From Candidatus Harrisonbacteria bacterium (lineage in GTDB: Bacteria > Patescibacteriota > Minisyncoccia > UBA6257 > 1-14-0-10-44-23), in the NCBI GenBank assembly GCA_023255625.1, contig JAHFLF010000002.1, positions 39,734 to 103,733 on the forward strand: a DNA stretch of 64,000 nt, read 5' to 3'. The position numbers and the translations under genes are program-made. Positions within the stretch are counted from its first letter, which is position 1. Each line of letters begins with the position of its first letter. Below the pieces are notes generated by a model. The model had not been told where the DNA came from and ran no database searches. It was given only the letters and a program-made list of their open reading frames with translations. Positions 46,509 to 56,937 of this stretch are shown piece by piece.

Positions 46509-46618
46509 GCCTTTACTATATCCCTACGCGCCCGCTGGCGCAATAAAAGATTGTAAATTTATGAACCCTGCGCTATGTTGAATCTGTGACGCCTCGCGCG
46601 TCCGGAAAGGAGTCGGTC

Positions 46619-46792
46619 ATGACAAGTTTGCAGTTCTTTGGCGGGATCCTGATTCTGGTGGGAATCCTGCTCTTCCTACTCGGCTACAACCTAGTCGGTA
46701 AGAACGGGGGCGGCGTGATAGCCGGACTCTTCGGCATGCTGTCAGTTGCCTGCGCCGCAATCGGTATGGTGTTTTTCCTTGGGAGGGGCTAA
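46619..46792 (+). CDS. Small hydrophobic protein (57 aa, 2 predicted TM), GC-rich
   Basis: SD GGAAAGGAG 5 nt before the ATG at 46619. MTSLQFFGGILILVGILLFLLGYNLVGKNGGGVIAGLFGMLSVACAAIGMVFFLGRG. Confidence 0.45.
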   Translation: MTSLQFFGGILILVGILLFLLGYNLVGKNGGGVIAGLFGMLSVACAAIGMVFFLGRG

Positions 46793-46944
46793 TGAACCCC
46801 TTGCTAACGATTGCCGGCGTCATCCTGGTTCTCGCTAGTGCCGCTCGTGGCTACAGAGCGGTGTGGCAGGAGGAATACGAGGAGGCGGCTGGATACGCAT
46901 TTCTGTTCCTGGTCGGCGCCTGCTTCCTGGTGGCGGCCCGATGA
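46792..46944 (+). CDS. Small hydrophobic protein (50 aa, 2 TM), translationally coupled
   Basis: ATG overlaps the upstream stop (TAATG). MNPLLTIAGVILVLASAARGYRAVWQEEYEEAAGYAFLFLVGACFLVAAR. Confidence 0.4.
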   Translation: MNPLLTIAGVILVLASAARGYRAVWQEEYEEAAGYAFLFLVGACFLVAAR

Positions 46945-47354
46945 TGAACATCTTCGTGCTCGCACCGTTGTGCATCCTTCCCGTGCTGGTGTTCGGCCTG
47001 ATCATGATCGGGCGCGTGCGAGTTATCTTCCGAACCTGCTACCCGCCCGGGGCAGAGCGCCCACCCTGCATCGTTCGGTGGCCACGACATCGCTTCGAGG
47101 CCTGGTTCTACCTCGCTGTAGGATCAGCGCTGATAGGAACGGCGAGCGCCTGCCTCGTCGGAGTTCTGCTTCTACTCGCAGGCGTCGACCAGGTCCGGCG
47201 AGAAGAGATCTTCTGGTTCCAGAGCGCATGGTGCTGGCTGGCCGGTGGAGGCATCCTGGCGAACCTCTGCGGATTCACCACGCAGCGGTTCGATGGACTC
47301 AATCGTGATTGGACGAAATTCAAGGAGGAACAACATAAGTGCGCGACCAGCTAA
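46941..47354 (+). CDS. Small membrane protein (137 aa, 3-4 TM), translationally coupled (ATGA overlap)
   Basis: MMNIFVLAPLCILPVLVFGLIMIG... The ORF track's longer N-terminus (from 46863) is probably spurious. Confidence 0.4.
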   Translation: MMNIFVLAPLCILPVLVFGLIMIGRVRVIFRTCYPPGAERPPCIVRWPRHRFEAWFYLAVGSALIGTASACLVGVLLLLAGVDQVRREEIFWFQSAWCWLAGGGILANLCGFTTQRFDGLNRDWTKFKEEQHKCATS

Positions 47355-48414: not shown

Positions 48415-48849
48415 ATGCAGACGCATGAGCCACTTTTTTGTGTCGCTGGCGGATTTCCCGCTGCAACAATCGCCTGTTTCGGTCCGACCGCGACGGCACA
48501 TTTCGTCGAGATGACCGCAGTAGAGGCGGTCGGCTGGATCCGCGCCAAGGACACGGCAACACTGAAGCTCCTTTGGCGATACGGCCCAGAGGAGTCGCTG
48601 CTTCGTGAATTCATGGCTGGTCAAGGCCTGGCCGACCTGCTCAAGGGACGCGATCGCCCAGACCGTCTGAACGGCAGCCGCTTCGAACGGCTCGAGGCGA
48701 TCATCGTCTTTCGCACCGAAAGCGGGGCTGTCCGTATTCGTCTGTTGACAATGGAGCCAACCTGTCCCCTCGACTCTGAAGAAGAGCCGACGGTCGAGGT
48801 TCAACTGCCACCAGAGGAGATCGCTGACATCAACCAACTCGGCGAGTGA
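48415..48849 (+). CDS. Hypothetical protein (GC-rich island)
   Basis: GGGAG SD 8 nt before the ATG. Competing minus-strand ORFs exist in this high-GC stretch, so the frame choice is tentative. Confidence 0.3.
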   Translation: MQTHEPLFCVAGGFPAATIACFGPTATAHFVEMTAVEAVGWIRAKDTATLKLLWRYGPEESLLREFMAGQGLADLLKGRDRPDRLNGSRFERLEAIIVFRTESGAVRIRLLTMEPTCPLDSEEEPTVEVQLPPEEIADINQLGE

Positions 48850-48964
48850 GTAACCTCGCCAACCGCACCAGGGGCCCCGACGCAAATGCGCTCGGGGCCC
48901 TCGGACTATTCGGTCTCAACGCATAAGCTCCGAAGTCCCGCCAAGATGAGATATAATCGGCTAA

Positions 48965-49033
48965 CCCCCAAACTTTTCCCCAAGATGAGCAGGGATACCT
49001 TTTACTGCTCCCTTTGGGGAAAAGTTTGGGGGG
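48965..49033. repeat. Core-conserved palindromic element, copy 1 (+ orientation)
   Basis: Arm ccccaaacttttcccc, core CAAGATGAGCAGGGATACCTTTTACTGCTCCCTTTGG, arm ggggaaaagtttgggg; the arms are exact reverse complements. Confidence 0.6.
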
Positions 49034-49038
49034 CCGGC

Positions 49039-49103
49039 AACCAAAAATTCCCGCCATAGGGAGCAGTAAATCCTATCTGCTCATCTTGACGGGAATTTTG
49101 GGA
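49039..49103. repeat. Core-conserved palindromic element, copy 2 (- orientation, variant core), convergent with copy 1
   Basis: Arms ccaaaaattcccg / cgggaattttgg; core variant CCATAGGGAGCAGTAAATCCTATCTGCTCATCTTG. Confidence 0.55.
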
Positions 49104-49264
49104 TTGCGCTTTTATTAAAAGACTATTTTTGTTTTTTATATTTCTAAATTAAAATCTTAAAAATCACAAAGGGCCGGACGAAGATCGTCACGGCCCTTGT
49201 GCTGTTGCGAGGACACTTACTTCGGGCGGTCCTCGACTTTGCCCGTTGAGCTTGCGCTCCATGT

Positions 49265-49873
49265 CTACCTCCTCCGTCGCGACTGCGACGGGATCTCGTA
49301 GCCGCCGTAGCGGCTGCGAGGCAGGTTCACGCCTGCCGAGCGGTGGGTCCATGTCCCGCCGCCGTTGCCGCTGTTGTACCCGCCGACATATGCCGGCTGA
49401 TACAGCGGCGTAGAAGCCGACGACGCCCCGATCGCGACGCCGGTCGCATATGACTGCGACTGCGTCGTCGGCTGGGAGTCCGGCGGCTCCCATCCGGCCT
49501 CGATGAGGAGCTTCCTCATCTCGTCCGGCGAAACGCCCCCCAGCCCCGTCGTCGCGGCCGCGCTGACCGCAGCCGCGTTGGCAGGCGTCGGCGTCGCGGA
49601 GTGGGCGCGAATCCATTCCTTGATCAAGGAAGGCGGACCGTTGAACTGGTCTCCTCCCTCCTTGATCAATCGCCTCGTGCCGTCGGGGTCGGTCGAGTTC
49701 GTCGACCCCTCCGAGGAATGCCGCGTGAACTCCACGGATTCCTCGGGCTCGTCCGACTCGACGATCTGAACGAACGTCTGCCGGACCTCTTCCATCGGAT
49801 TCACGGCCCGACACCCCGTCGCGACACCCAGTGTCGTCGCGATGACACACAGAACGATGAGGGGGTTCCTCAT
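49265..49873 (-). CDS. Putative lipoprotein (GC-rich island)
   Basis: Likely start MRNPLIVLCVIATTLGVATGC (lipobox ATGC) with GGAGG SD. Ser/Thr/Gly-rich mature region. Confidence 0.5.
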   Translation of the reverse strand: MRNPLIVLCVIATTLGVATGCRAVNPMEEVRQTFVQIVESDEPEESVEFTRHSSEGSTNSTDPDGTRRLIKEGGDQFNGPPSLIKEWIRAHSATPTPANAAAVSAAATTGLGGVSPDEMRKLLIEAGWEPPDSQPTTQSQSYATGVAIGASSASTPLYQPAYVGGYNSGNGGGTWTHRSAGVNLPRSRYGGYEIPSQSRRRR

Positions 49874-49930
49874 GTTCGTCTCCTTCCGGCCCGTAGGCCT
49901 CCCCAACTGCACTATGCGTTGGTGGAATAT

Positions 49931-49959
49931 ATTATACACCTATTGTATCAAAATGTCAA
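49931..49959 (-). promoter_or_regulatory. Consensus sigma70 promoter TTGACA-17-TATAAT driving the 49265..49873 gene
   Basis: Minus-strand read: tttgacattttgatacaataggtgtataat. -35 region motif ttgacattttgat shared with the other three island promoters. Confidence 0.55.
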
Positions 49960-50000
49960 ATCTAACACCAGCGAATTCAGCAAGTAAGTAAAAGTCCCGA

Positions 50001-50070
50001 GCCCCTAAACTTCCCGCCAAAGGGAGCAGTAAAAGGTATCCCTGCTCATCTTGGCGAGAAGTTTAGGGGC
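50001..50070. repeat. Core-conserved palindromic element, copy 3 (- orientation)
   Basis: Arms gcccctaaacttc / gaagtttaggggc flank the exact complement of the copy-1 core. Confidence 0.6.
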
Positions 50071-50085
50071 TCATTTTATTCATAA

Positions 50086-50292
50086 AAATGAAAAGAGCCG
50101 AGTACCAGTGAAGGTATCCTCGGACTCTTTTCGCTACCGGTATTTCTCGGGTCTTCCTGCCCGCGTTCCCACCGGTAGGAACAACTCTCACTGGAACGAA
50201 CTTTCACCTCTCAATCTGGGAATACTCCTTTTCTTCAGCTACTCTCAACCAGATTCCCCTTTGGTTGAGTGGCTGTGGCGCGAAGTTGCGCC
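50086..50292 (-). repeat. 207-bp duplicated element, copy 1, starting 1-2 nt after a stop codon and ending in a hairpin plus U-run
   Basis: About 99% identical to 52250..52456. On the transcribed strand it begins with a GGCGC-AACTTC-GCGCC hairpin, contains CTCAACCA/TGGTTGAG and GTTCC-TACCGGTGG-GAAC hairpins, and ends GAGTCCGAGGATACC..GGTACTCGGCTC + TTTT. The ORF-track proteins 50051..51097 and 52221..52619 on the plus strand just translate it. Confidence 0.6.
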
Positions 50293-50293
50293 G

Positions 50294-50998
50294 TCAGAGC
50301 CGAGCGAGATCATCGACCAAGCTCTTCGCCAAGTCAGTGTCCCGCACATGGGCATTGATCTGCTCGATCATCTTCGAGAGACCAACGTCCGCGATGAGCG
50401 CCGGATAGCTCCGACGCATCGCCTGCCGCCGATCTTCGGCGACCTTGGGCAGAGGCGGCCTGGACGTGAGAGCTGCGAAATAGCTCTCCGCGTCCTTGCC
50501 GAACGCCTCCAAGGCGGCGTTCTGGACCACCTTCACCTTCGCCGCTGCCTGCGCGTCGGCGAAGTCGCGCATCGCCGCCCGGATCAGATCCGGCGTCTTC
50601 GCCTGCTGCTCGGCCAGGTCCTTGACCTGCGCCGCCAGCGCGACGATGGCCGGGTCGACTCTCGGCGCCTTCTCGAGCGCCTCGAGTCGCTTCTCGAGCG
50701 TGCTCTTGTCGGCGAGCTGCTTCGCCAGCCCGGCGATCTGCGCCTGCAGCTGCTTGAAGGACTCGTCGGACACCTGCGATGCGGCACTCTGTGTGCCGGA
50801 CAGTCTGGCGAGACTCGCCTCCGACGCCGCCAGCCGCGTCTCGAGCCGGTTGATCCCCTCGGTCGCCGCGTCGACGCGCCCGGAGACCTCGTCGGCGTGC
50901 TGACTGCCGCCGCCGAACTGTCCGTAGGAAACCCCCCACGCGACGGCGCCCAGGACCGCGACCGCCCCGACCCACAGAAGAATATTCGTGAGCTTCAT
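50294..50998 (-). CDS. Membrane-anchored coiled-coil protein (GC-rich island)
   Basis: Likely start MKLTNILLWVGAVAVLGAVAWGV (TM anchor) after SD GGAGAGGGAGGG; Ala/Gln/Leu-rich heptad-like remainder. Confidence 0.5.
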   Translation of the reverse strand: MKLTNILLWVGAVAVLGAVAWGVSYGQFGGGSQHADEVSGRVDAATEGINRLETRLAASEASLARLSGTQSAASQVSDESFKQLQAQIAGLAKQLADKSTLEKRLEALEKAPRVDPAIVALAAQVKDLAEQQAKTPDLIRAAMRDFADAQAAAKVKVVQNAALEAFGKDAESYFAALTSRPPLPKVAEDRRQAMRRSYPALIADVGLSKMIEQINAHVRDTDLAKSLVDDLARL

Positions 50999-51079
50999 AA
51001 AACCCTCCCTCTCCGACCCTACTTGGGGTACGGACCAACGGCTTCTGGCCGCTGGCAATCGGGCATTTCCGACCTAAAT

Positions 51080-51109
51080 ATTATAGCATATAAATAGCAT
51101 CTCTGTCAA
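51080..51109 (-). promoter_or_regulatory. Consensus sigma70 promoter TTGACA-18-TATAAT driving 50294..50998
   Basis: Minus-strand read: cttgacagagatgctatttatatgctataat. Confidence 0.5.
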
Positions 51110-51234
51110 GCAATCAAATTGTTATAAAAACGGCACGCCCCCAAAGTACAGTTCTTCTGTATCTCCAGGGGCGCATGCTCGGACTGATTTTGCTTGATTC
51201 CGATGAAGTCCGTAGACATCGGAGCAATTGGTGA

Positions 51235-51900
51235 TCACTTCTTGAAGAAGATCACCGGGTGCGGCTTCTCTGCCGGAGCCGGAGTCGCGTGCGGCTGTCG
51301 GCTCGCCCGAATGAAGTTCAGGACGGCGAAGCCGAGCAGGATCACCAGGACGGCGAAGACAATCCGCAGCGGCCAGCTCGTCCTCGGCTGCTGCTCGACG
51401 ACCTCGTCGGACTCCGGCTGCTCGGAGACCTCCGTCCGATCGTCGGCAGCTGGAGCTGCCGGGCGGCCTCGTCGAAAGACCTCCTGGACAGCCAAGGCGT
51501 CTGGCTGCCTTGCAGCCGCAGGGACTTCGTCGACGAAGGTGTCCTGTCTCGAGATCTCGACCGTCGCCATCCTCGGCTCGGCCGACGACAGGTCCAGGTC
51601 GTCCCCCTCGCCGAAGATCAGGTCGTCGGAGGCATCCTCCGAGTCGCCCTTCTTCCCAGCCGAGAGGTCGATGACGCCCGTCTCCTCTTCGGACCGCACG
51701 CCGGTCAGGTCGAGGTTCTCGACGTCCGCCTTGCGGAACTTCATGACGTCGATCTTCTGACCAGGTTTCGCCGGATCATCCTGCTTCTCGCGTAAGGCGC
51801 GGATCTCTCCCTCCGAGACCAGCCGCTTCAGCTTGGGCTCGTCGATGGTGAGGCGCTTCAGGACCTCGTCGAATGTCAAGAACTCGCCGCTCTTGCCCAT
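51235..51900 (-). CDS. HTH (excisionase/MerR-like), acidic linker and C-terminal TM-anchor protein (GC-rich island)
   Basis: Likely start MGKSGEFLTFDEVLKRLTIDEPKLKRLVSEGEIRALRE (HTH_17-like); Asp/Glu-rich middle; C-terminal WPLRIVFAVLVILLGFAVLNFI helix. Confidence 0.45.
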   Translation of the reverse strand: MGKSGEFLTFDEVLKRLTIDEPKLKRLVSEGEIRALREKQDDPAKPGQKIDVMKFRKADVENLDLTGVRSEEETGVIDLSAGKKGDSEDASDDLIFGEGDDLDLSSAEPRMATVEISRQDTFVDEVPAAARQPDALAVQEVFRRGRPAAPAADDRTEVSEQPESDEVVEQQPRTSWPLRIVFAVLVILLGFAVLNFIRASRQPHATPAPAEKPHPVIFFKK

Positions 51901-51980
51901 GATCGTCTCCCTTCCCTCCGTGCAAAAACACAGAGGAACGCAGCACAACGCCGCGTTTAACGGTCATTTCCGTCAAAATT

Positions 51981-52009
51981 AACATAGCATTTTATTATCA
52001 AAATGTCAA
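51981..52009 (-). promoter_or_regulatory. sigma70-like promoter TTGACA-17-TATGTT driving 51235..51900
   Basis: Minus-strand read: tttgacattttgataataaaatgctatgtt. Confidence 0.45.
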
Positions 52010-52049
52010 ATCTAACACCGCGAGTTCAACAAGTAAGTGCAAAGCCGCA

Positions 52050-52118
52050 AACCTAGAGTTTCCCCCAAGATGAGCAGGGATACCTTTTACTGCTCCCTTT
52101 GGGGGAAACTCTAGGTTT
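52050..52118. repeat. Core-conserved palindromic element, copy 4 (+ orientation)
   Basis: Arms aacctagagtttccccc / gggggaaactctaggttt; core identical to copy 1. Confidence 0.6.
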
Positions 52119-52130
52119 GCGATTCGGAAT

Positions 52131-52202
52131 GAAAACTTAAGATTCTCCCCATAGGGAGCACTAAATCCTATGTGCTCATCTTGGGGAGAATCTTAAGTTT
52201 TC
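52131..52202. repeat. Core-conserved palindromic element, copy 5 (- orientation, variant core with compensatory stem change), convergent with copy 4
   Basis: Arms gaaaacttaagattctcccc / ggggagaatcttaagttttc. Inner stem GAGCAC/GTGCTC replaces GAGCAG/CTGCTC. Confidence 0.55.
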
Positions 52203-52249
52203 TGATTAATCAACATCGGTATGTGTTTTGGGTTAAATACATTCAACAA

Positions 52250-52456
52250 AAAAGAAAAGAGCCGAGTACCAGTGAAGGTATCCTCGGACTCTTTTCGCTA
52301 CCGGTATTTTTCGGGTCTTCCTGCCCGCGTTCCCACCGGTAGGAACAACTCTCACTGGAACGAACTTTCACCTCTCAATCTGGGAATACTCCTTTTCTTC
52401 AGCTACTCTCAACCAGATTCCCCTTTGGTTGAGTGGCTGTGGCGCGAAGTTGCGCC
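52250..52456 (-). repeat. 207-bp duplicated element, copy 2, directly after the TAG stop of 52456..53043
   Basis: One mismatch against copy 1 (tatttttcgg vs tatttctcgg). Confidence 0.6.
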
Positions 52457-53043
52457 TACGGGAGCTGGGCGGTCGCCAGCCCGATCAGCCCACTGTGCTT
52501 GGTGGCCACGACGGCCGCCAGACAGGTGGCGTTGTCGGGAAAGGGCTTGCCGCCGTTGCCCACCCTGCGGAACTTCCGCACCAGGAACACCGCTTCGGCG
52601 CTCCTGCCGTCGTCGATGAGCGCCGCGGCCTCGGCGAGCAGCTTGTCCGCGACCGGACCCGCTGCCGGAGCCGACTTCTTCTCGAGGACATCGACCCGCG
52701 CCCCGAGGTCGACGACCTCGTCGGCGATCGCGCCGACGACCGTGGACGATGCCCAGTCCTTGGGGTTGAACCCCGCGGACGACGCCGGCACGGCAGTCTG
52801 CGCGGCGACCGGAGCGGTGGCAGAGGCCGCCGGCGCAGGGGCCGCCACCGCCACCGGCTGGCTCACGACCGGCGTCGGCAGTGTCGCAGCCGGAGCCGCC
52901 ACGACAGCCGCCGGCGTGGCGGCAGTCGCCTGCTGCGGGCACGAACCCGCAGTCGGATCGGCGCTGACGCCGATCCCGAACACGCTCCGACATCCTCCCG
53001 CCGCGAGCACCGCGGCGAGCACGACCAACCTTCGCGTCTGCAT
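52456..53043 (-). CDS. Putative lipoprotein, Ala/Pro-rich (GC-rich island)
   Basis: MQTRRLVVLAAVLAAGGC signal/lipobox; PAAVVAAPAATLPTPVVSQPVAVAAPAPAASATAP linker; SD GGGAGGAG. Confidence 0.5.
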   Translation of the reverse strand: MQTRRLVVLAAVLAAGGCRSVFGIGVSADPTAGSCPQQATAATPAAVVAAPAATLPTPVVSQPVAVAAPAPAASATAPVAAQTAVPASSAGFNPKDWASSTVVGAIADEVVDLGARVDVLEKKSAPAAGPVADKLLAEAAALIDDGRSAEAVFLVRKFRRVGNGGKPFPDNATCLAAVVATKHSGLIGLATAQLP

Positions 53044-53123
53044 CGTTCGATCTCCTCCCGGGGTTTTACCCCGTTCTAATGGACCCGCCCGACCCTCGCT
53101 GGGTCAGTCCGAATCGCCTAAAA

Positions 53124-53152
53124 TATATAGCATATTGCAATAAAAATGTCAA
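53124..53152 (-). promoter_or_regulatory. sigma70-like promoter TTGACA-17-TATATA driving 52456..53043
   Basis: Minus-strand read: tttgacatttttattgcaatatgctatata. Confidence 0.45.
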
Positions 53153-53191
53153 ATATCGTTCTATTGAGTTCAAAACTAGGCCAGCATTTAG

Positions 53192-53263
53192 CCAATGCAA
53201 AATCCGCACCAAGATGAGCAGGGATACCTTTTACTGCTCCCTATGGTGCGGACTTTGCATTGG
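53192..53263. repeat. Core-conserved palindromic element, copy 6 (+ orientation); a degenerate partner lies at about 53271-53300
   Basis: Arms ccaatgcaaaatccgcacc / ggtgcggactttgcattgg (1 mismatch); core CAAGATGAGCAGGGATACCTTTTACTGCTCCCTATGG. Confidence 0.55.
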
Positions 53264-53391
53264 CTGTCTCGCCAAATAGATCTTATCTGCTCACCTTGGG
53301 GAGAAGCTTGGGGCAACTGCTCTAGCCAAAATGACCGCTCTATAGTTCAATATTGCATTTCTGTTAGATTTTCAAATAAAAACTTAAATCT

Positions 53392-53425
53392 CCATGTTAC
53401 AGCGTACTAGTACGCTGTAACATGG
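53392..53425. repeat. Perfect 34-bp palindrome
   Basis: ccatgttacagcgtac-ta-gtacgctgtaacatgg with no flanking T/A run; lies between the island and the leuS terminator. Confidence 0.6.
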
Positions 53426-53463
53426 CTAGGAAATAAACTGAAGTAAAAAATGAGCGACAAGAT

Positions 53464-53520
53464 AAAAAATTACGGGATTTTGGCAATAGAACCCCGTTTG
53501 CCAAAATCCCGTAATTTTTT
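53464..53520 (-). terminator. Bidirectional intrinsic terminator downstream of leuS
   Basis: 23-bp perfect inverted repeat aaaaaattacgggattttggcaa / ttgccaaaatcccgtaatttttt with A/T runs on both sides. Confidence 0.65.
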
Positions 53521-53540
53521 ATTGCCCGCCAAAACAAAAA

Positions 53541-55964: not shown

Positions 55965-56034
55965 GGGAATGAAGTATGGGATAAGAATTATGAAGTATGG
56001 AAAATAAATTCCCGCTGCCCTTAATTCATACTTC

Positions 56035-56937
56035 TCACTTCTTAATTCCGAAAATGCGTTCCGCATTTTCGGTGGTTATTCTTGCCATTTCATCATACGA
56101 CACTCCCTTAATTTCCGCTAATTTTTTTACAACCTCTGTAATATATGCCGGCTCGTTGCGCTTCCCGCGGTGCGGCTCGGGGCTAACATACGGGGCGTCG
56201 GTTTCGGTCAGCAGCCGGTCAAGAGGAATCATTTTAATCTGCTCATCATAGTCCGGGCACTTGCCCGCCTTAGGCGGGAAGGTAATGACACCACCGAATT
56301 CAAAGTTAAATCCTGCTTGAAGAAATTTCTTGGTCATTGCTGCGGAGCCAACATAGAAATGTAGGACTCGCGGAAGTATGAAGTTAGAATTATGAATTAT
56401 GGCAAGGAGGTCTTCGTAAGCATCATCGGTGCTTTTGCCGGGCTTGCCCTCCGTAGCTTTAGCGAAGGAGGGCCGGCAATGAATCATGAGCGCTTTACCG
56501 ACCTCCTGCGCAATCCGTACATGCTGCAAAAACACATCTTTCTGTTTTATTCGTACTTTCGTAAAAGATTCGTCATTCGTAGCTCTATAGTAATCCAACC
56601 CGCACTCGCCGATAGCAACGACTTTTGGGTCGCGCGCTAAATTCAAATAAAAATCGTAATCAAACTCTTCCTCGCGACTCGTAAAACTCTTTGCCGCCGC
56701 TCCGCCCCCAAGCTCATTCTCATCATGATACGACTTTGCGGTGTGAACAGGATGCAAGCCGATCGCGGCGTAAACATCCTTTTCATAAAAGTTGGCAATC
56801 TCAACCGCCCGCGCAGAGGTATCCCGCTGCGTACCAACATTAATGATTGAAACGCCGGCAGCTAAAGAGCGGTCAATGACCTCTTTCCAATCCTTTTCAA
56901 AAGCGGCAAATTGTACATGCGTATGGCAATCGAACAT
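56035..56937 (-). CDS. tatD: TatD-family metal-dependent hydrolase/DNase
   Basis: MFDCHTHVQF (HxH), later GLHP and GECGLDY motifs. Confidence 0.8.
   Translation of the reverse strand: MFDCHTHVQFAAFEKDWKEVIDRSLAAGVSIINVGTQRDTSARAVEIANFYEKDVYAAIGLHPVHTAKSYHDENELGGGAAAKSFTSREEEFDYDFYLNLARDPKVVAIGECGLDYYRATNDESFTKVRIKQKDVFLQHVRIAQEVGKALMIHCRPSFAKATEGKPGKSTDDAYEDLLAIIHNSNFILPRVLHFYVGSAAMTKKFLQAGFNFEFGGVITFPPKAGKCPDYDEQIKMIPLDRLLTETDAPYVSPEPHRGKRNEPAYITEVVKKLAEIKGVSYDEMARITTENAERIFGIKK

What the first reader, a model, noticed from the sequence alone, without database searches (positions are those of the whole stretch)
50086..52456. A 207-bp element duplicated at 99% identity, each copy starting 1-2 nt after the stop codon of an envelope-protein gene
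Copies at 50086..50292 and 52250..52456 differ by one base. Both sit on the transcribed strand directly after the stop codon of a membrane or lipoprotein gene (TGA at 50294; TAG at 52456). Both open with a GGCGC-AACTTC-GCGCC hairpin, contain at least two more internal hairpins, carry an AAAAGGAG box, and end in a long imperfect hairpin flanked by A- and U-runs, which is an intrinsic terminator. They are followed by the palindromic elements. The plus-strand proteins in the ORF track that cover these regions are artefacts of translating the repeat. Candidate roles are a conserved structured 3'UTR or small RNA such as a stabiliser, sRNA or retron-like ncRNA, or a cryptic 48-codon GTG-initiated ORF (VRVVPTGGNAGRKTREIPVAKRVRGYLHWYSALF...) on the same strand.
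Basis: seen in the sequence. Interest (0 to 1): 0.7.

Follow-up and report, generated by a model that had tools for sequence, protein, structure and literature searches.

The report
Duplicated 3′ untranslated tail with terminator
Two unrelated envelope-protein genes of an uncultured ultra-small (CPR/Patescibacteria) bacterium carry the same ~207-base structured tail, running from the stop codon to the transcription terminator; it is most likely a recently copied 3′ untranslated region, not a known RNA gene, mobile element or hidden protein gene.

Summary
Window 50084-50292 and 52248-52456 are a 209-nt direct repeat, 99% identical, with one internal mismatch. On the minus strand each copy starts at the stop codon of a gene (g2 TGA + 1 nt; g4 overlaps the G of TAG). 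Each ends in the U-tract of an intrinsic-terminator hairpin, so the repeat unit is a whole 3′UTR.

It matches no Rfam family. It has no terminal inverted repeats or target duplications, no conserved ORF, and no reverse transcriptase, integrase or transposase in ~81 kb of this genome. I found no other copy in that 81 kb, in syntenic relatives, or in viral, phage or plasmid collections. The single metagenome scan gave only a chance hit.

The four GC-rich genes (g4-g3-g2-g1) appear to be a conserved cluster downstream of LeuRS in related CPR genomes. There too each gene has its own consensus promoter, a long structured 3′UTR and a terminator. The g4 counterparts all have a GC hairpin abutting the stop codon.

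Best reading: a lineage-specific 3′UTR/terminator module recently copied from one gene onto another, in an island rich in repeated promoter modules and covarying 80-nt palindromes. Structure conservation and function cannot be tested with near-identical copies. Interest is modest.

The parts
50084..50292 (-). Copy A of the repeat: the complete 3′UTR of g2, from 1 nt after the TGA stop to the terminator U-tract
   Evidence: R1 276 bits
52248..52456 (-). Copy B of the repeat: the complete 3′UTR of g4; its first G is the last base of the TAG stop
   Evidence: R1 274 bits
50277..50292 (-). H1, GC-clamp hairpin GGCGC-AACUUC-GCGCC abutting the stop codon (copy B: 52441-52456)
   Evidence: -10.1 kcal/mol
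50236..50275 (-). H2, predicted hairpin CAGC..CUCAACCA-loop-UGGUUGAG..GCUG (copy B: 52400-52439)
   Evidence: prediction only, no covariation available
50225..50232 (-). AAAAGGAG Shine-Dalgarno-like box in a purine-rich linker (copy B: 52389-52396); reads AAGGCG in the ENA variant contig
50134..50178 (-). H3, predicted hairpin CUACCGGUG...UACCGGUAG with an inner GGGC/GCCC helix (copy B: 52298-52342)
   Evidence: prediction only
50084..50132 (-). Intrinsic-terminator-like hairpin (GCGAAAAGAGUCCGAGGAUACC...GGUACUCGGCUCUUUUC) plus U-tract (copy B: 52248-52296)
   Evidence: sequence read directly
50294..50998 (-). g2: N-terminal TM segment plus coiled-coil protein, 234 aa, GC3 0.86; no other sequence in the protein database
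52456..53043 (-). g4: lipoprotein (signal peptide ending ...AAGGC), 195 aa, GC3 0.87; syntenic counterparts in L003, L086, L087
51235..51900 (-). g3: HTH_17-like N-terminus plus C-terminal TM segment, 221 aa, with its own different 3′UTR and terminator
49265..49873 (-). g1: Gly/Tyr-rich lipoprotein, 202 aa, with its own different 3′UTR and terminator
49995..50076 (-). Palindromic P element (A-type loop), 8 nt downstream of copy A by these coordinates
52127..52206 (-). Palindromic P element (B-type loop), 42 nt downstream of copy B by these coordinates; paired with the inverted A-type copy at 52043-52124 (+)
52043..52124 (+). Palindromic P element (A-type loop)
48958..49111 (.). P-element pair, A(+) 48958-49039 and B(-) 49032-49111, beyond the g1 terminator
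53187..53320 (.). P-element pair, A(+) 53187-53268 and truncated B(-) 53266-53320, between the LeuRS terminator and the g4 promoter
49931..49959 (-). g1 promoter TTGACA-17-TATAAT (12/12). Others: g2 51080-51109 (12/12), g3 51981-52009 (10/12), g4 53124-53152 (TTGACA-17-TATATA, read by eye)

Best explanation
The repeat is a self-contained 3′ untranslated region plus intrinsic terminator. It is transcribed as the tail of two strongly promoted, monocistronic envelope-protein mRNAs (g2 and g4).

Anatomy, 5′ to 3′ on the minus strand:
- a 5-bp all-GC hairpin that begins 0-1 nt after the stop codon;
- a second hairpin;
- a purine-rich linker with Shine-Dalgarno-like boxes;
- a third hairpin;
- a long A-run/U-run terminator hairpin.

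Inferred function: it ends transcription before the next gene's promoter, and it caps the mRNA 3′ end with stable secondary structure that protects against 3′-5′ exonucleases. The stop-adjacent hairpin may also affect translation termination.

The two copies are nearly identical although the genes are unrelated. I infer that one gene's 3′UTR was recently overwritten by the other's through non-reciprocal recombination or gene conversion. This happened within an island full of repeated modules (promoters, P palindromes). g4 is the more likely donor, because g4 counterparts in relatives all carry a stop-adjacent hairpin.

Shown: position, boundaries, strand, predicted folding, absence of mobile-element or RNA-family hallmarks, and the same gene-plus-long-structured-3′UTR architecture in relatives. 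Inferred: termination and stabilisation activity, and the copying mechanism.
For: - Exact boundaries at the stop codons and at the terminator U-tract, with unrelated flanks on both sides.
- No second terminator lies between the element and the next promoter, so the element occupies the terminator slot. g1 and g3 each have their own different 3′UTR and terminator there.
- g1, g2 and g3 have sigma-70-type promoters matching 10-12 of 12 consensus positions (8 promoter-like sites found vs 1.4 expected); the g4 promoter was read by eye. No promoter-like site lies inside the element.
- The minus strand folds into four hairpins, MFE -81 kcal/mol, z = -3.5.
- The genes are real: GC3 0.84-0.87 vs GC2 0.41-0.59.
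- Syntenic relatives L003, L086 and L087 have the same layout downstream of LeuRS: GC-rich lipoprotein or TM-coiled-coil genes, each with a consensus promoter. Most carry an 80-270 nt structured 3′UTR and a terminator.
- All four g4-type genes have a -10 to -17 kcal/mol hairpin starting 0-5 nt from the stop, although the sequences are unrelated.
- No Rfam hit. No reverse transcriptase, integrase or transposase in ~81 kb.
Against: - Only two near-identical copies and one 3-SNP variant exist, so nothing shows that the structure, rather than just the sequence, is maintained.
- The plus strand folds at least as well relative to shuffles (z = -6.3).
- Gene conversion would not by itself be expected to end exactly at the stop codon on one side and the transcript end on the other. 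That precision is unexplained and also fits a discrete inserted unit.
- A 207-nt 3′UTR is long for a reduced genome, which hints at a function beyond termination.
- No expression data are available.
- The element has no detectable similarity to the relatives' 3′UTRs.
Confidence: 0.55

Rival explanations
1. Regulatory RNA. The tail is processed from the mRNAs, or acts in cis, as a 3′UTR-derived sRNA or a protein/ribosome sponge. The purine-rich single-stranded linker (AAAAGGAG, GAGAGGUGA) would be the active part. Both genes carry it so that they feed the same regulator.
For: - It is longer and more elaborate than a terminator needs to be.
- It has SD-like GA-rich boxes in the predicted unpaired region.
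- Near-identity is kept on two unrelated genes.
- Relatives' 3′UTRs are also purine-rich between hairpins.
Against: - The population variant destroys the AAGGAG box (AAGGCG) and a stem pair.
- No relatives with a similar sequence or CM hit.
- No pairing with the genes' own 5′UTRs above shuffled controls.
- No Rfam family.
- No expression data.
Confidence: 0.2
2. Small non-autonomous mobile or dispersed repeat that carries a terminator. It would be analogous to MITE, ERIC or Correia-type elements, would have landed behind two genes, and was retained because it supplies termination.
For: - A discrete unit with sharp ends and unrelated flanks.
- It is associated with another repeat family, the P palindromes.
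- All three differences between ENA contig L002 and the window fall inside copy A. That would fit a third copy elsewhere confusing the assembler.
Against: - No terminal inverted repeats and no target-site duplications.
- Only two copies in ~81 kb, both in the same orientation and both at stop codons.
- No transposase or RAYT nearby.
- Absent from relatives and from viral, phage and plasmid collections.
Confidence: 0.12
3. Recombination scar or attachment site. The two direct repeats flank a 2.16-kb g3-g2 cassette that entered, and can leave, by recombination within the 207-nt sequence.
For: - Direct repeats flank a two-gene segment, spacing 2164 nt.
- g3 has a weak excisionase-like HTH_17 N-terminus (E = 0.003, below the Pfam cut-off).
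Against: - The gene order g4-type, HTH/TM/coiled-coil, g1-type is shared with relatives L003 and L087. So g3 and g2 are resident genes, not a newly inserted cassette.
- No integrase is present.
- This model still does not explain why both repeats begin at a stop codon.
Confidence: 0.05
4. Protein-coding. A small ORF within the element would be the functional unit: the 48-codon GTG ORF, the 14-codon UUG ORF after AGGGG, or the open plus-strand frame.
For: SD-like boxes precede possible starts, and one plus-strand frame is open across the whole element.
Against: - The 48-codon ORF runs through the terminator, and its C-terminus differs between the copies.
- Both variant SNPs inside it are radical replacements.
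- The plus-frame peptide has no match among 5.8 billion proteins, even at E <= 10.
- The upstream reading frames enter the two copies in different phases, so read-through products would differ.
- Gene callers called nothing there.
Confidence: 0.03

Closest known systems
Intrinsic (Rho-independent) terminators with extended structured 3′UTRs
   Same: The 3′ end is a GC-containing hairpin, preceded by an A-run and followed by a U-tract. It lies downstream of a gene on the transcribed strand, before the next promoter.
   Different: The unit is about 160 nt longer than a terminator needs, with three more hairpins. It is duplicated at 99% identity on two unrelated genes.
REP/BIME elements of enterobacteria in 3′UTRs, including REPs within ~15 nt of a stop codon reported to stall terminating ribosomes (Liang, Rudd & Deutscher, Mol Cell 2015; recalled from my own knowledge, not retrieved here)
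   Same: Repeated intergenic structured sequence placed directly behind stop codons. The known roles, mRNA 3′-end protection and modulation of translation termination, are plausible here. It co-occurs with inverted pairs of palindromes, as in BIMEs.
   Different: The 207-nt element is not itself a palindrome. It has two copies, not hundreds. No RAYT transposase was found, and it carries its own terminator. The P palindromes have a conserved apex and covarying lower stem, the opposite of REP conservation.
3′UTR-derived small RNAs (e.g. CpxQ, SroC, DapZ in enterobacteria; from my own knowledge)
   Same: An RNA that shares the terminator of an mRNA, with an unpaired seed-like region upstream of the terminator hairpin.
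   Different: There is no evidence of processing or of an internal promoter. No targets were identified. Known examples are single-locus and conserved across species, whereas this one is duplicated and lineage-restricted.
ERIC/IRU and Neisseria Correia elements (transcribed intergenic repeats that can carry terminator or promoter functions; from my own knowledge)
   Same: A repeat of 100-200 nt located in transcribed intergenic DNA next to genes, and predicted to fold.
   Different: Those are imperfect palindromes with terminal inverted repeats, many copies and either orientation. This element has no TIRs or TSDs, only two copies, and one orientation.

Membership tests
Any Rfam 15 RNA family | Covariance-model score at or above the gathering threshold | tested here: not met
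   A gathering-threshold search of the whole window finds only 4 tRNAs. A permissive search of 48800-53500 at E <= 10 finds nothing over the element except a 38-nt SpF10 chance hit at its edge (E = 6.6).
Intrinsic terminator | Stable stem-loop immediately followed by a U-tract on the transcribed strand, downstream of a gene | tested here: met
   The hairpin occupies 50090-50132 and 52254-52296, followed by AUUUUUAU and UUUUUUGUUG. The simple consensus scanner missed it, probably because the stem has bulges.
Intrinsic terminator | Transcripts actually end there | not testable with these tools
   No transcriptome data are available.
MITE / IS end | Terminal inverted repeats and flanking target-site duplications | tested here: not met
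   The ends GGCGCAAC... and ...CTCTTTTCATTTTT are not inverted repeats. The flanks of the two copies share no duplication.
MITE / IS end | Multiple dispersed copies and/or a cognate transposase in the genome | tested here: inconclusive
   Two copies and no transposase in ~81 kb. The rest of the genome could not be searched.
Retron ncRNA (msr-msd) | Adjacent reverse transcriptase gene | tested here: not met
   No RT domain appears among the called genes across the window and its flanks. The element lies 3′ of envelope genes.
REP/BIME/REPIN | Short imperfect palindrome, highly repeated, with a RAYT (Y1 HUH) transposase | tested here: not met
   The 207-nt element is not palindromic overall, has two copies, and no RAYT was found. 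The neighbouring P elements are palindromic, but only 7 clustered copies are seen.
Integron attC / gene cassette | R''/R' core sites (RYYYAAC ... GTTRRRY) at the stem base, a variable apex, and an IntI integrase nearby | tested here: not met
   P elements have a conserved apex and a variable base with no consistent R boxes. There is no integrase. Every gene has its own promoter, and gene order is conserved in relatives.
Small protein gene | An ORF conserved in frame, with homologues or synonymous-biased variation | tested here: not met
   No homologue. The candidate ORF's variant SNPs are both non-synonymous, and its end differs between copies.
3′UTR-derived sRNA | A discrete processed or internally initiated RNA species sharing the mRNA terminator | not testable with these tools
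   This needs RNA-seq or a Northern blot. No internal promoter-like site was found.

The most novel reading that the evidence does not exclude
The repeat unit is delimited by RNA landmarks: first base after the stop codon, last base in the terminator U-tract. This could mean that whole 3′UTRs are exchanged between genes as discrete modules. The route could be an RNA-templated copy or a dedicated recombination process linked to the neighbouring covarying palindromes. That would be a portable 'tail cassette' system for envelope genes in CPR bacteria. Alternatively, the tail could be a new class of 3′UTR regulatory RNA specific to this lineage.
Probability: 0.1. Interest if true: 0.7.

Novelty: new member of a known kind. 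Interest (0 to 1): 0.3.

Why it matters
If the reading is right, this is an ordinary class of feature, a structured 3′UTR with terminator, in an unusual state: copied precisely from stop codon to transcript end onto an unrelated gene. It adds to the sparse knowledge of non-coding RNA architecture in CPR/Patescibacteria. It also draws attention to a peculiar, apparently conserved envelope-gene cluster whose genes stay 65-73% GC in 45-57% GC genomes. Each of those genes has a consensus promoter and a long structured tail. The practical value is mainly as an annotation warning. The plus-strand ORFs are artefacts, and short-read assemblies break at this repeat. It is also a candidate for metatranscriptomic 3′-end mapping.

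Tried and rejected
- **Rfam** at gathering and permissive thresholds: nothing.
- **Exact-pattern scans for the element and the P-element core in viral contigs:** 0 hits.
- **blastn against phage and plasmid collections:** no match.
- **The single metagenome scan,** with a 21-mer from the linker, returned one locus (L083).
None of the 80 loci contains the element or P elements.
- **The element's open plus-strand frame as a protein query,** to catch spurious ORF calls elsewhere: no candidates.
- **g2 protein search:** the protein has no homologue in the database.
- **Local alignment of the element to relatives' 3′UTRs:** not above shuffled controls.
- **Covariance model R1:** it found only the window copies, plus an 18.7-bit hit in L003 (15780-15941). 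That hit spans the end of a CDS and its terminator. I judge it terminator resemblance, not homology.
- **5′UTR-3′UTR duplex energies:** not different from shuffles.
- **Campbell-type cassette insertion:** rejected because gene order is shared with relatives.
- **Stop-codon read-through:** rejected because the two upstream frames enter the element in different phases.
- **Integron attC reading of the palindromes:** rejected, since the apex is conserved and there are no R boxes.
Full report
**1. Observation**

The repeat finder and blastn both report a 209-nt direct repeat at 50084-50292 and 52248-52456, 99% identical, 2164 nt apart. The internal difference is 50146 C vs 52310 T. A second difference lies in the A-run at the edge. 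No further full or partial copy exists in the 64-kb window (blastn word size 7; covariance model R1).

On the minus strand, copy A starts one nucleotide after the TGA of ORF 50294-50998 (g2). The first G of copy B is the last base of the TAG of ORF 52456-53043 (g4). Identity stops abruptly at both ends. Upstream lie two unrelated coding sequences. Downstream, identity ends inside the U-run that follows the last hairpin.

The arrangement is independently supported.
- ENA contig L002 (2415 nt) spans both copies.
- Other contigs from two samples (ERZ27297344 and ERZ27280176) terminate inside the repeat, which is how de Bruijn assemblers treat a true repeat.

**2. Context**

The window is chromosomal DNA of a CPR/Patescibacteria-type bacterium. 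It carries RpoD, DnaG, L28, LeuRS, TatD, the CCA-adding enzyme, tRNAs and envelope-polysaccharide genes. It has about 48% GC overall, and the housekeeping genes checked have GC3 of about 0.5. The nearest LeuRS in 5.8 billion proteins is 71% identical, and the nearest GTDB genome is 61% identical and labelled Saccharibacteria. The lineage is therefore poorly sampled.

Between LeuRS and tRNA-Pro/L28 lies an island with four minus-strand genes.
- g4 is a lipoprotein.
- g3 has an HTH_17-like N-terminus plus a TM segment.
- g2 has a TM segment plus coiled coil.
- g1 is a Gly/Tyr-rich lipoprotein.

These genes are 65-73% GC, with GC3 of 0.84-0.87 and GC2 of 0.41-0.59. That is the signature of real coding sequence. 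Each gene has its own promoter: TTGACA-17/18-TATAAT matching 12/12 for g1 and g2, 10/12 for g3, and TTGACA-17-TATATA for g4. Eight promoter-like sites were found against 1.4 expected. g1 and g3 have their own, different 3′UTRs and terminators. No reverse transcriptase, integrase or transposase is called anywhere in the ~81 kb of this genome that I could reach.

**3. The palindromes**

Seven copies of an ~80-nt hairpin-forming element ('P') occur only between 48958 and 53320. They lie between each terminator and the next promoter, mostly as inverted A(+)/B(-) pairs. The apex is conserved: CAAGATGAGCAG-loop-CTGCTCCCTWTGG, with two loop types. The 23-bp lower stem covaries.
- 15 of its 23 pairs show changes on both sides.
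- 92% of all cells are paired.
- 0 of 500 shuffles reach this, and slid controls pair at only 36-54%.

The P elements are not attC-like, because the apex is conserved and there are no R boxes. They were not found in relatives or in viral contigs.

**4. The element itself**

It has no Rfam match at gathering or permissive thresholds. The minus-strand RNA is predicted to fold as follows (MFE -81 kcal/mol, z = -3.5).
- H1: GGCGC/GCGCC, abutting the stop codon.
- H2: CUCAACCA/UGGUUGAG, inside CAGC/GCUG.
- A purine-rich linker with AAAAGGAG and GAGAGGUGA.
- H3: CUACCGGUG/UACCGGUAG.
- A long A-run/U-run terminator hairpin followed by a U-tract.

The plus strand folds equally well (z = -6.3), so folding does not identify the functional strand. 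Gene and promoter layout does, since no promoter-like site lies within or just upstream of the element on either strand.

With only near-identical copies, none of the 60 predicted pairs can show covariation. A population variant of copy A (contig L002) carries three substitutions.
- One turns AAGGAG into AAGGCG.
- One breaks a terminal H3 pair.
- One lies in an unpaired region.

There are no differences in the remaining 2.2 kb of that contig. This argues against the SD-like box being essential. It also argues against the 48-codon GTG ORF: both SNPs inside it are radical replacements, the ORF runs through the terminator, and it ends differently in the two copies. The open plus-strand frame has no counterpart in the protein database. 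The element has no terminal inverted repeats and no target-site duplications.

**5. Relatives**

Three syntenic loci show the same design directly downstream of LeuRS: L003 (a GTDB MAG), L086 (a Logan assembly) and L087 (a JGI metagenome).
- They carry GC-rich (66-73%) lipoprotein and TM-coiled-coil genes in genomes of 50-57% GC.
- Each gene has a near-consensus promoter.
- Most have an 80-270 nt structured, purine-rich 3′UTR and a terminator.

The gene order matches g4-g3/g2-g1: a g4-type lipoprotein, then an HTH/TM/coiled-coil protein, then a Gly/Tyr-rich lipoprotein. Sequence similarity is weak (best E = 0.007 in a small database), so the equivalence rests mainly on synteny and architecture. 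On that basis the cluster is inherited, not a recent cassette insertion.

The 207-nt sequence itself is absent from these relatives. Alignments to their 3′UTRs do not exceed shuffled controls. Model R1 finds only an 18.7-bit terminator-like hit in L003 that overlaps a CDS end. All four g4-type genes nevertheless carry a stable hairpin (-10 to -17 kcal/mol) beginning 0-5 nt from, or overlapping, the stop codon. A stop-adjacent hairpin therefore looks like a conserved property of this gene's tail.

**6. Interpretation**

The most economical reading is that the repeat is a complete 3′UTR-plus-terminator module. It sits in the slot where g1 and g3 have their own terminators, and no second terminator follows it.

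I infer its role to be transcription termination and insulation from the next strong promoter, together with 3′-end protection of the mRNA. It may also modulate translation termination through the stop-adjacent hairpin. Such an effect has been reported for stop-proximal REP elements in E. coli; that comparison comes from my own knowledge and was not retrieved here.

The 99% identity on two unrelated genes implies a recent non-reciprocal copy of one tail onto the other gene. g4 is the likelier donor, given the conserved stop-adjacent hairpin in its counterparts.

This account leaves one thing unexplained. The copied tract ends exactly at the stop codon and at the transcript end. That keeps alive two rivals, a discrete mobile or portable unit and a regulatory RNA kept identical by selection. 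I put the 3′UTR/terminator reading at 0.55. The rivals are sRNA or sponge 0.20, dispersed or mobile repeat 0.12, recombination site 0.05 and sORF 0.03. The remainder covers assembly artefact, retron-like RNA and other readings.

**7. Novelty and score**

The element belongs to no described family, but the kind is familiar: a repeated, structured intergenic or 3′UTR sequence with a terminator. Without diverged copies or expression data, nothing here would strongly surprise a specialist. I rate interest 0.3 and classify it as a new member of a known kind.

The surrounding features may be the more intriguing leads.
- Persistently GC-rich envelope genes in lower-GC CPR genomes.
- Covarying 80-nt palindromes confined to one island.
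- Near-consensus promoter modules, two of which share 24 identical nucleotides.

Noticed in passing
window 48958-53320 (seven copies: 48958-49039+, 49032-49111-, 49995-50076-, 52043-52124+, 52127-52206-, 53187-53268+, 53266-53320- truncated): An ~80-nt palindromic repeat family confined to this island. The apex is conserved (CAAGATGAGCAG-loop-CTGCTCCCTWTGG, two loop types) and the 23-bp lower stem covaries strongly: 15 of its 23 pairs change on both sides, and 0 of 500 shuffles reach this. The copies sit between terminators and promoters, mostly as inverted pairs. No Rfam family matches, they are not attC-like, and they are absent from relatives and viral contigs.
   Followed up: partly
window 49265-53043; L003 12626-16572; L086 12497-13204; L087 12569-15530: The envelope-gene cluster downstream of LeuRS stays 65-73% GC (GC3 0.84-0.87) in genomes of 45-57% GC, across relatives whose LeuRS is only 61-71% identical. 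The proteins evolve fast, and g2 has no homologue among 5.8 billion proteins. The cause of the compositional contrast is unexplained.
   Followed up: partly
window 49931-49969, 51080-51109, 51981-52019, 53124-53152: Each of the four small genes has a near-perfect sigma-70 consensus promoter. The g1 and g3 promoters share an identical 24-nt module (TATCAAAATGTCAAATCTAACACC on the plus strand) and about 20 more similar bases reaching the adjacent palindrome. This suggests that promoter modules have also been copied within the island.
   Followed up: partly
window 50178, 50184, 50226 vs contig L002: All three differences between the ENA contig and the window lie inside copy A of the element, and none lies in the other 2.2 kb. 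This could reflect a strain variant or a third copy elsewhere that was threaded in by the assembler.
   Followed up: partly
window 50105-50113 / 52269-52277 and the P-element loops (e.g. 52078-52086): The 9-mer GGATACCTT (read on the minus strand of the element) occurs in the element's terminator hairpin and in the loop of every A-type palindrome, followed by ACTG one or two bases later. It could be a shared protein-recognition motif or coincidence (rough chance estimate 0.01-0.05).
   Followed up: no
first 32 nt after the stop codons of window g4, L003 12626-13231, L086 12497-13204 and L087 12569-13681: All g4-type lipoprotein genes have a stable GC hairpin (-10 to -17 kcal/mol) starting 0-5 nt from, or overlapping, the stop codon, although the sequences are unrelated.
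   Followed up: partly
window 53389-53432 and 53462-53522: Two strong palindromes lie just downstream of the LeuRS stop (53541). One has 25-nt arms that are 100% complementary with an 11-nt loop (ATAAAAAATTACGGGATTTTGGCAA / TTGCCAAAATCCCGTAATTTTTTAT). The other is a 34-nt hairpin (CCATGTTACAGCGTAC...). They are probably terminators.
   Followed up: no
window 46586-47354 and 48415-48849: Further moderately GC-rich small ORFs (GC3 0.64-0.72) sit between DnaG, L28, tRNA-Pro and the island. They comprise three small predicted membrane proteins and a 144-aa ORF convergent with g1, and none has a Pfam match above the gathering threshold.
   Followed up: no
window 55965-56066 (5′ end of the LeuRS ORF): The longest LeuRS ORF starts ~33 codons upstream of the conserved MNYDPQKIEKKW start and overlaps the TatD gene. 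The true start is probably the internal ATG.
   Followed up: no
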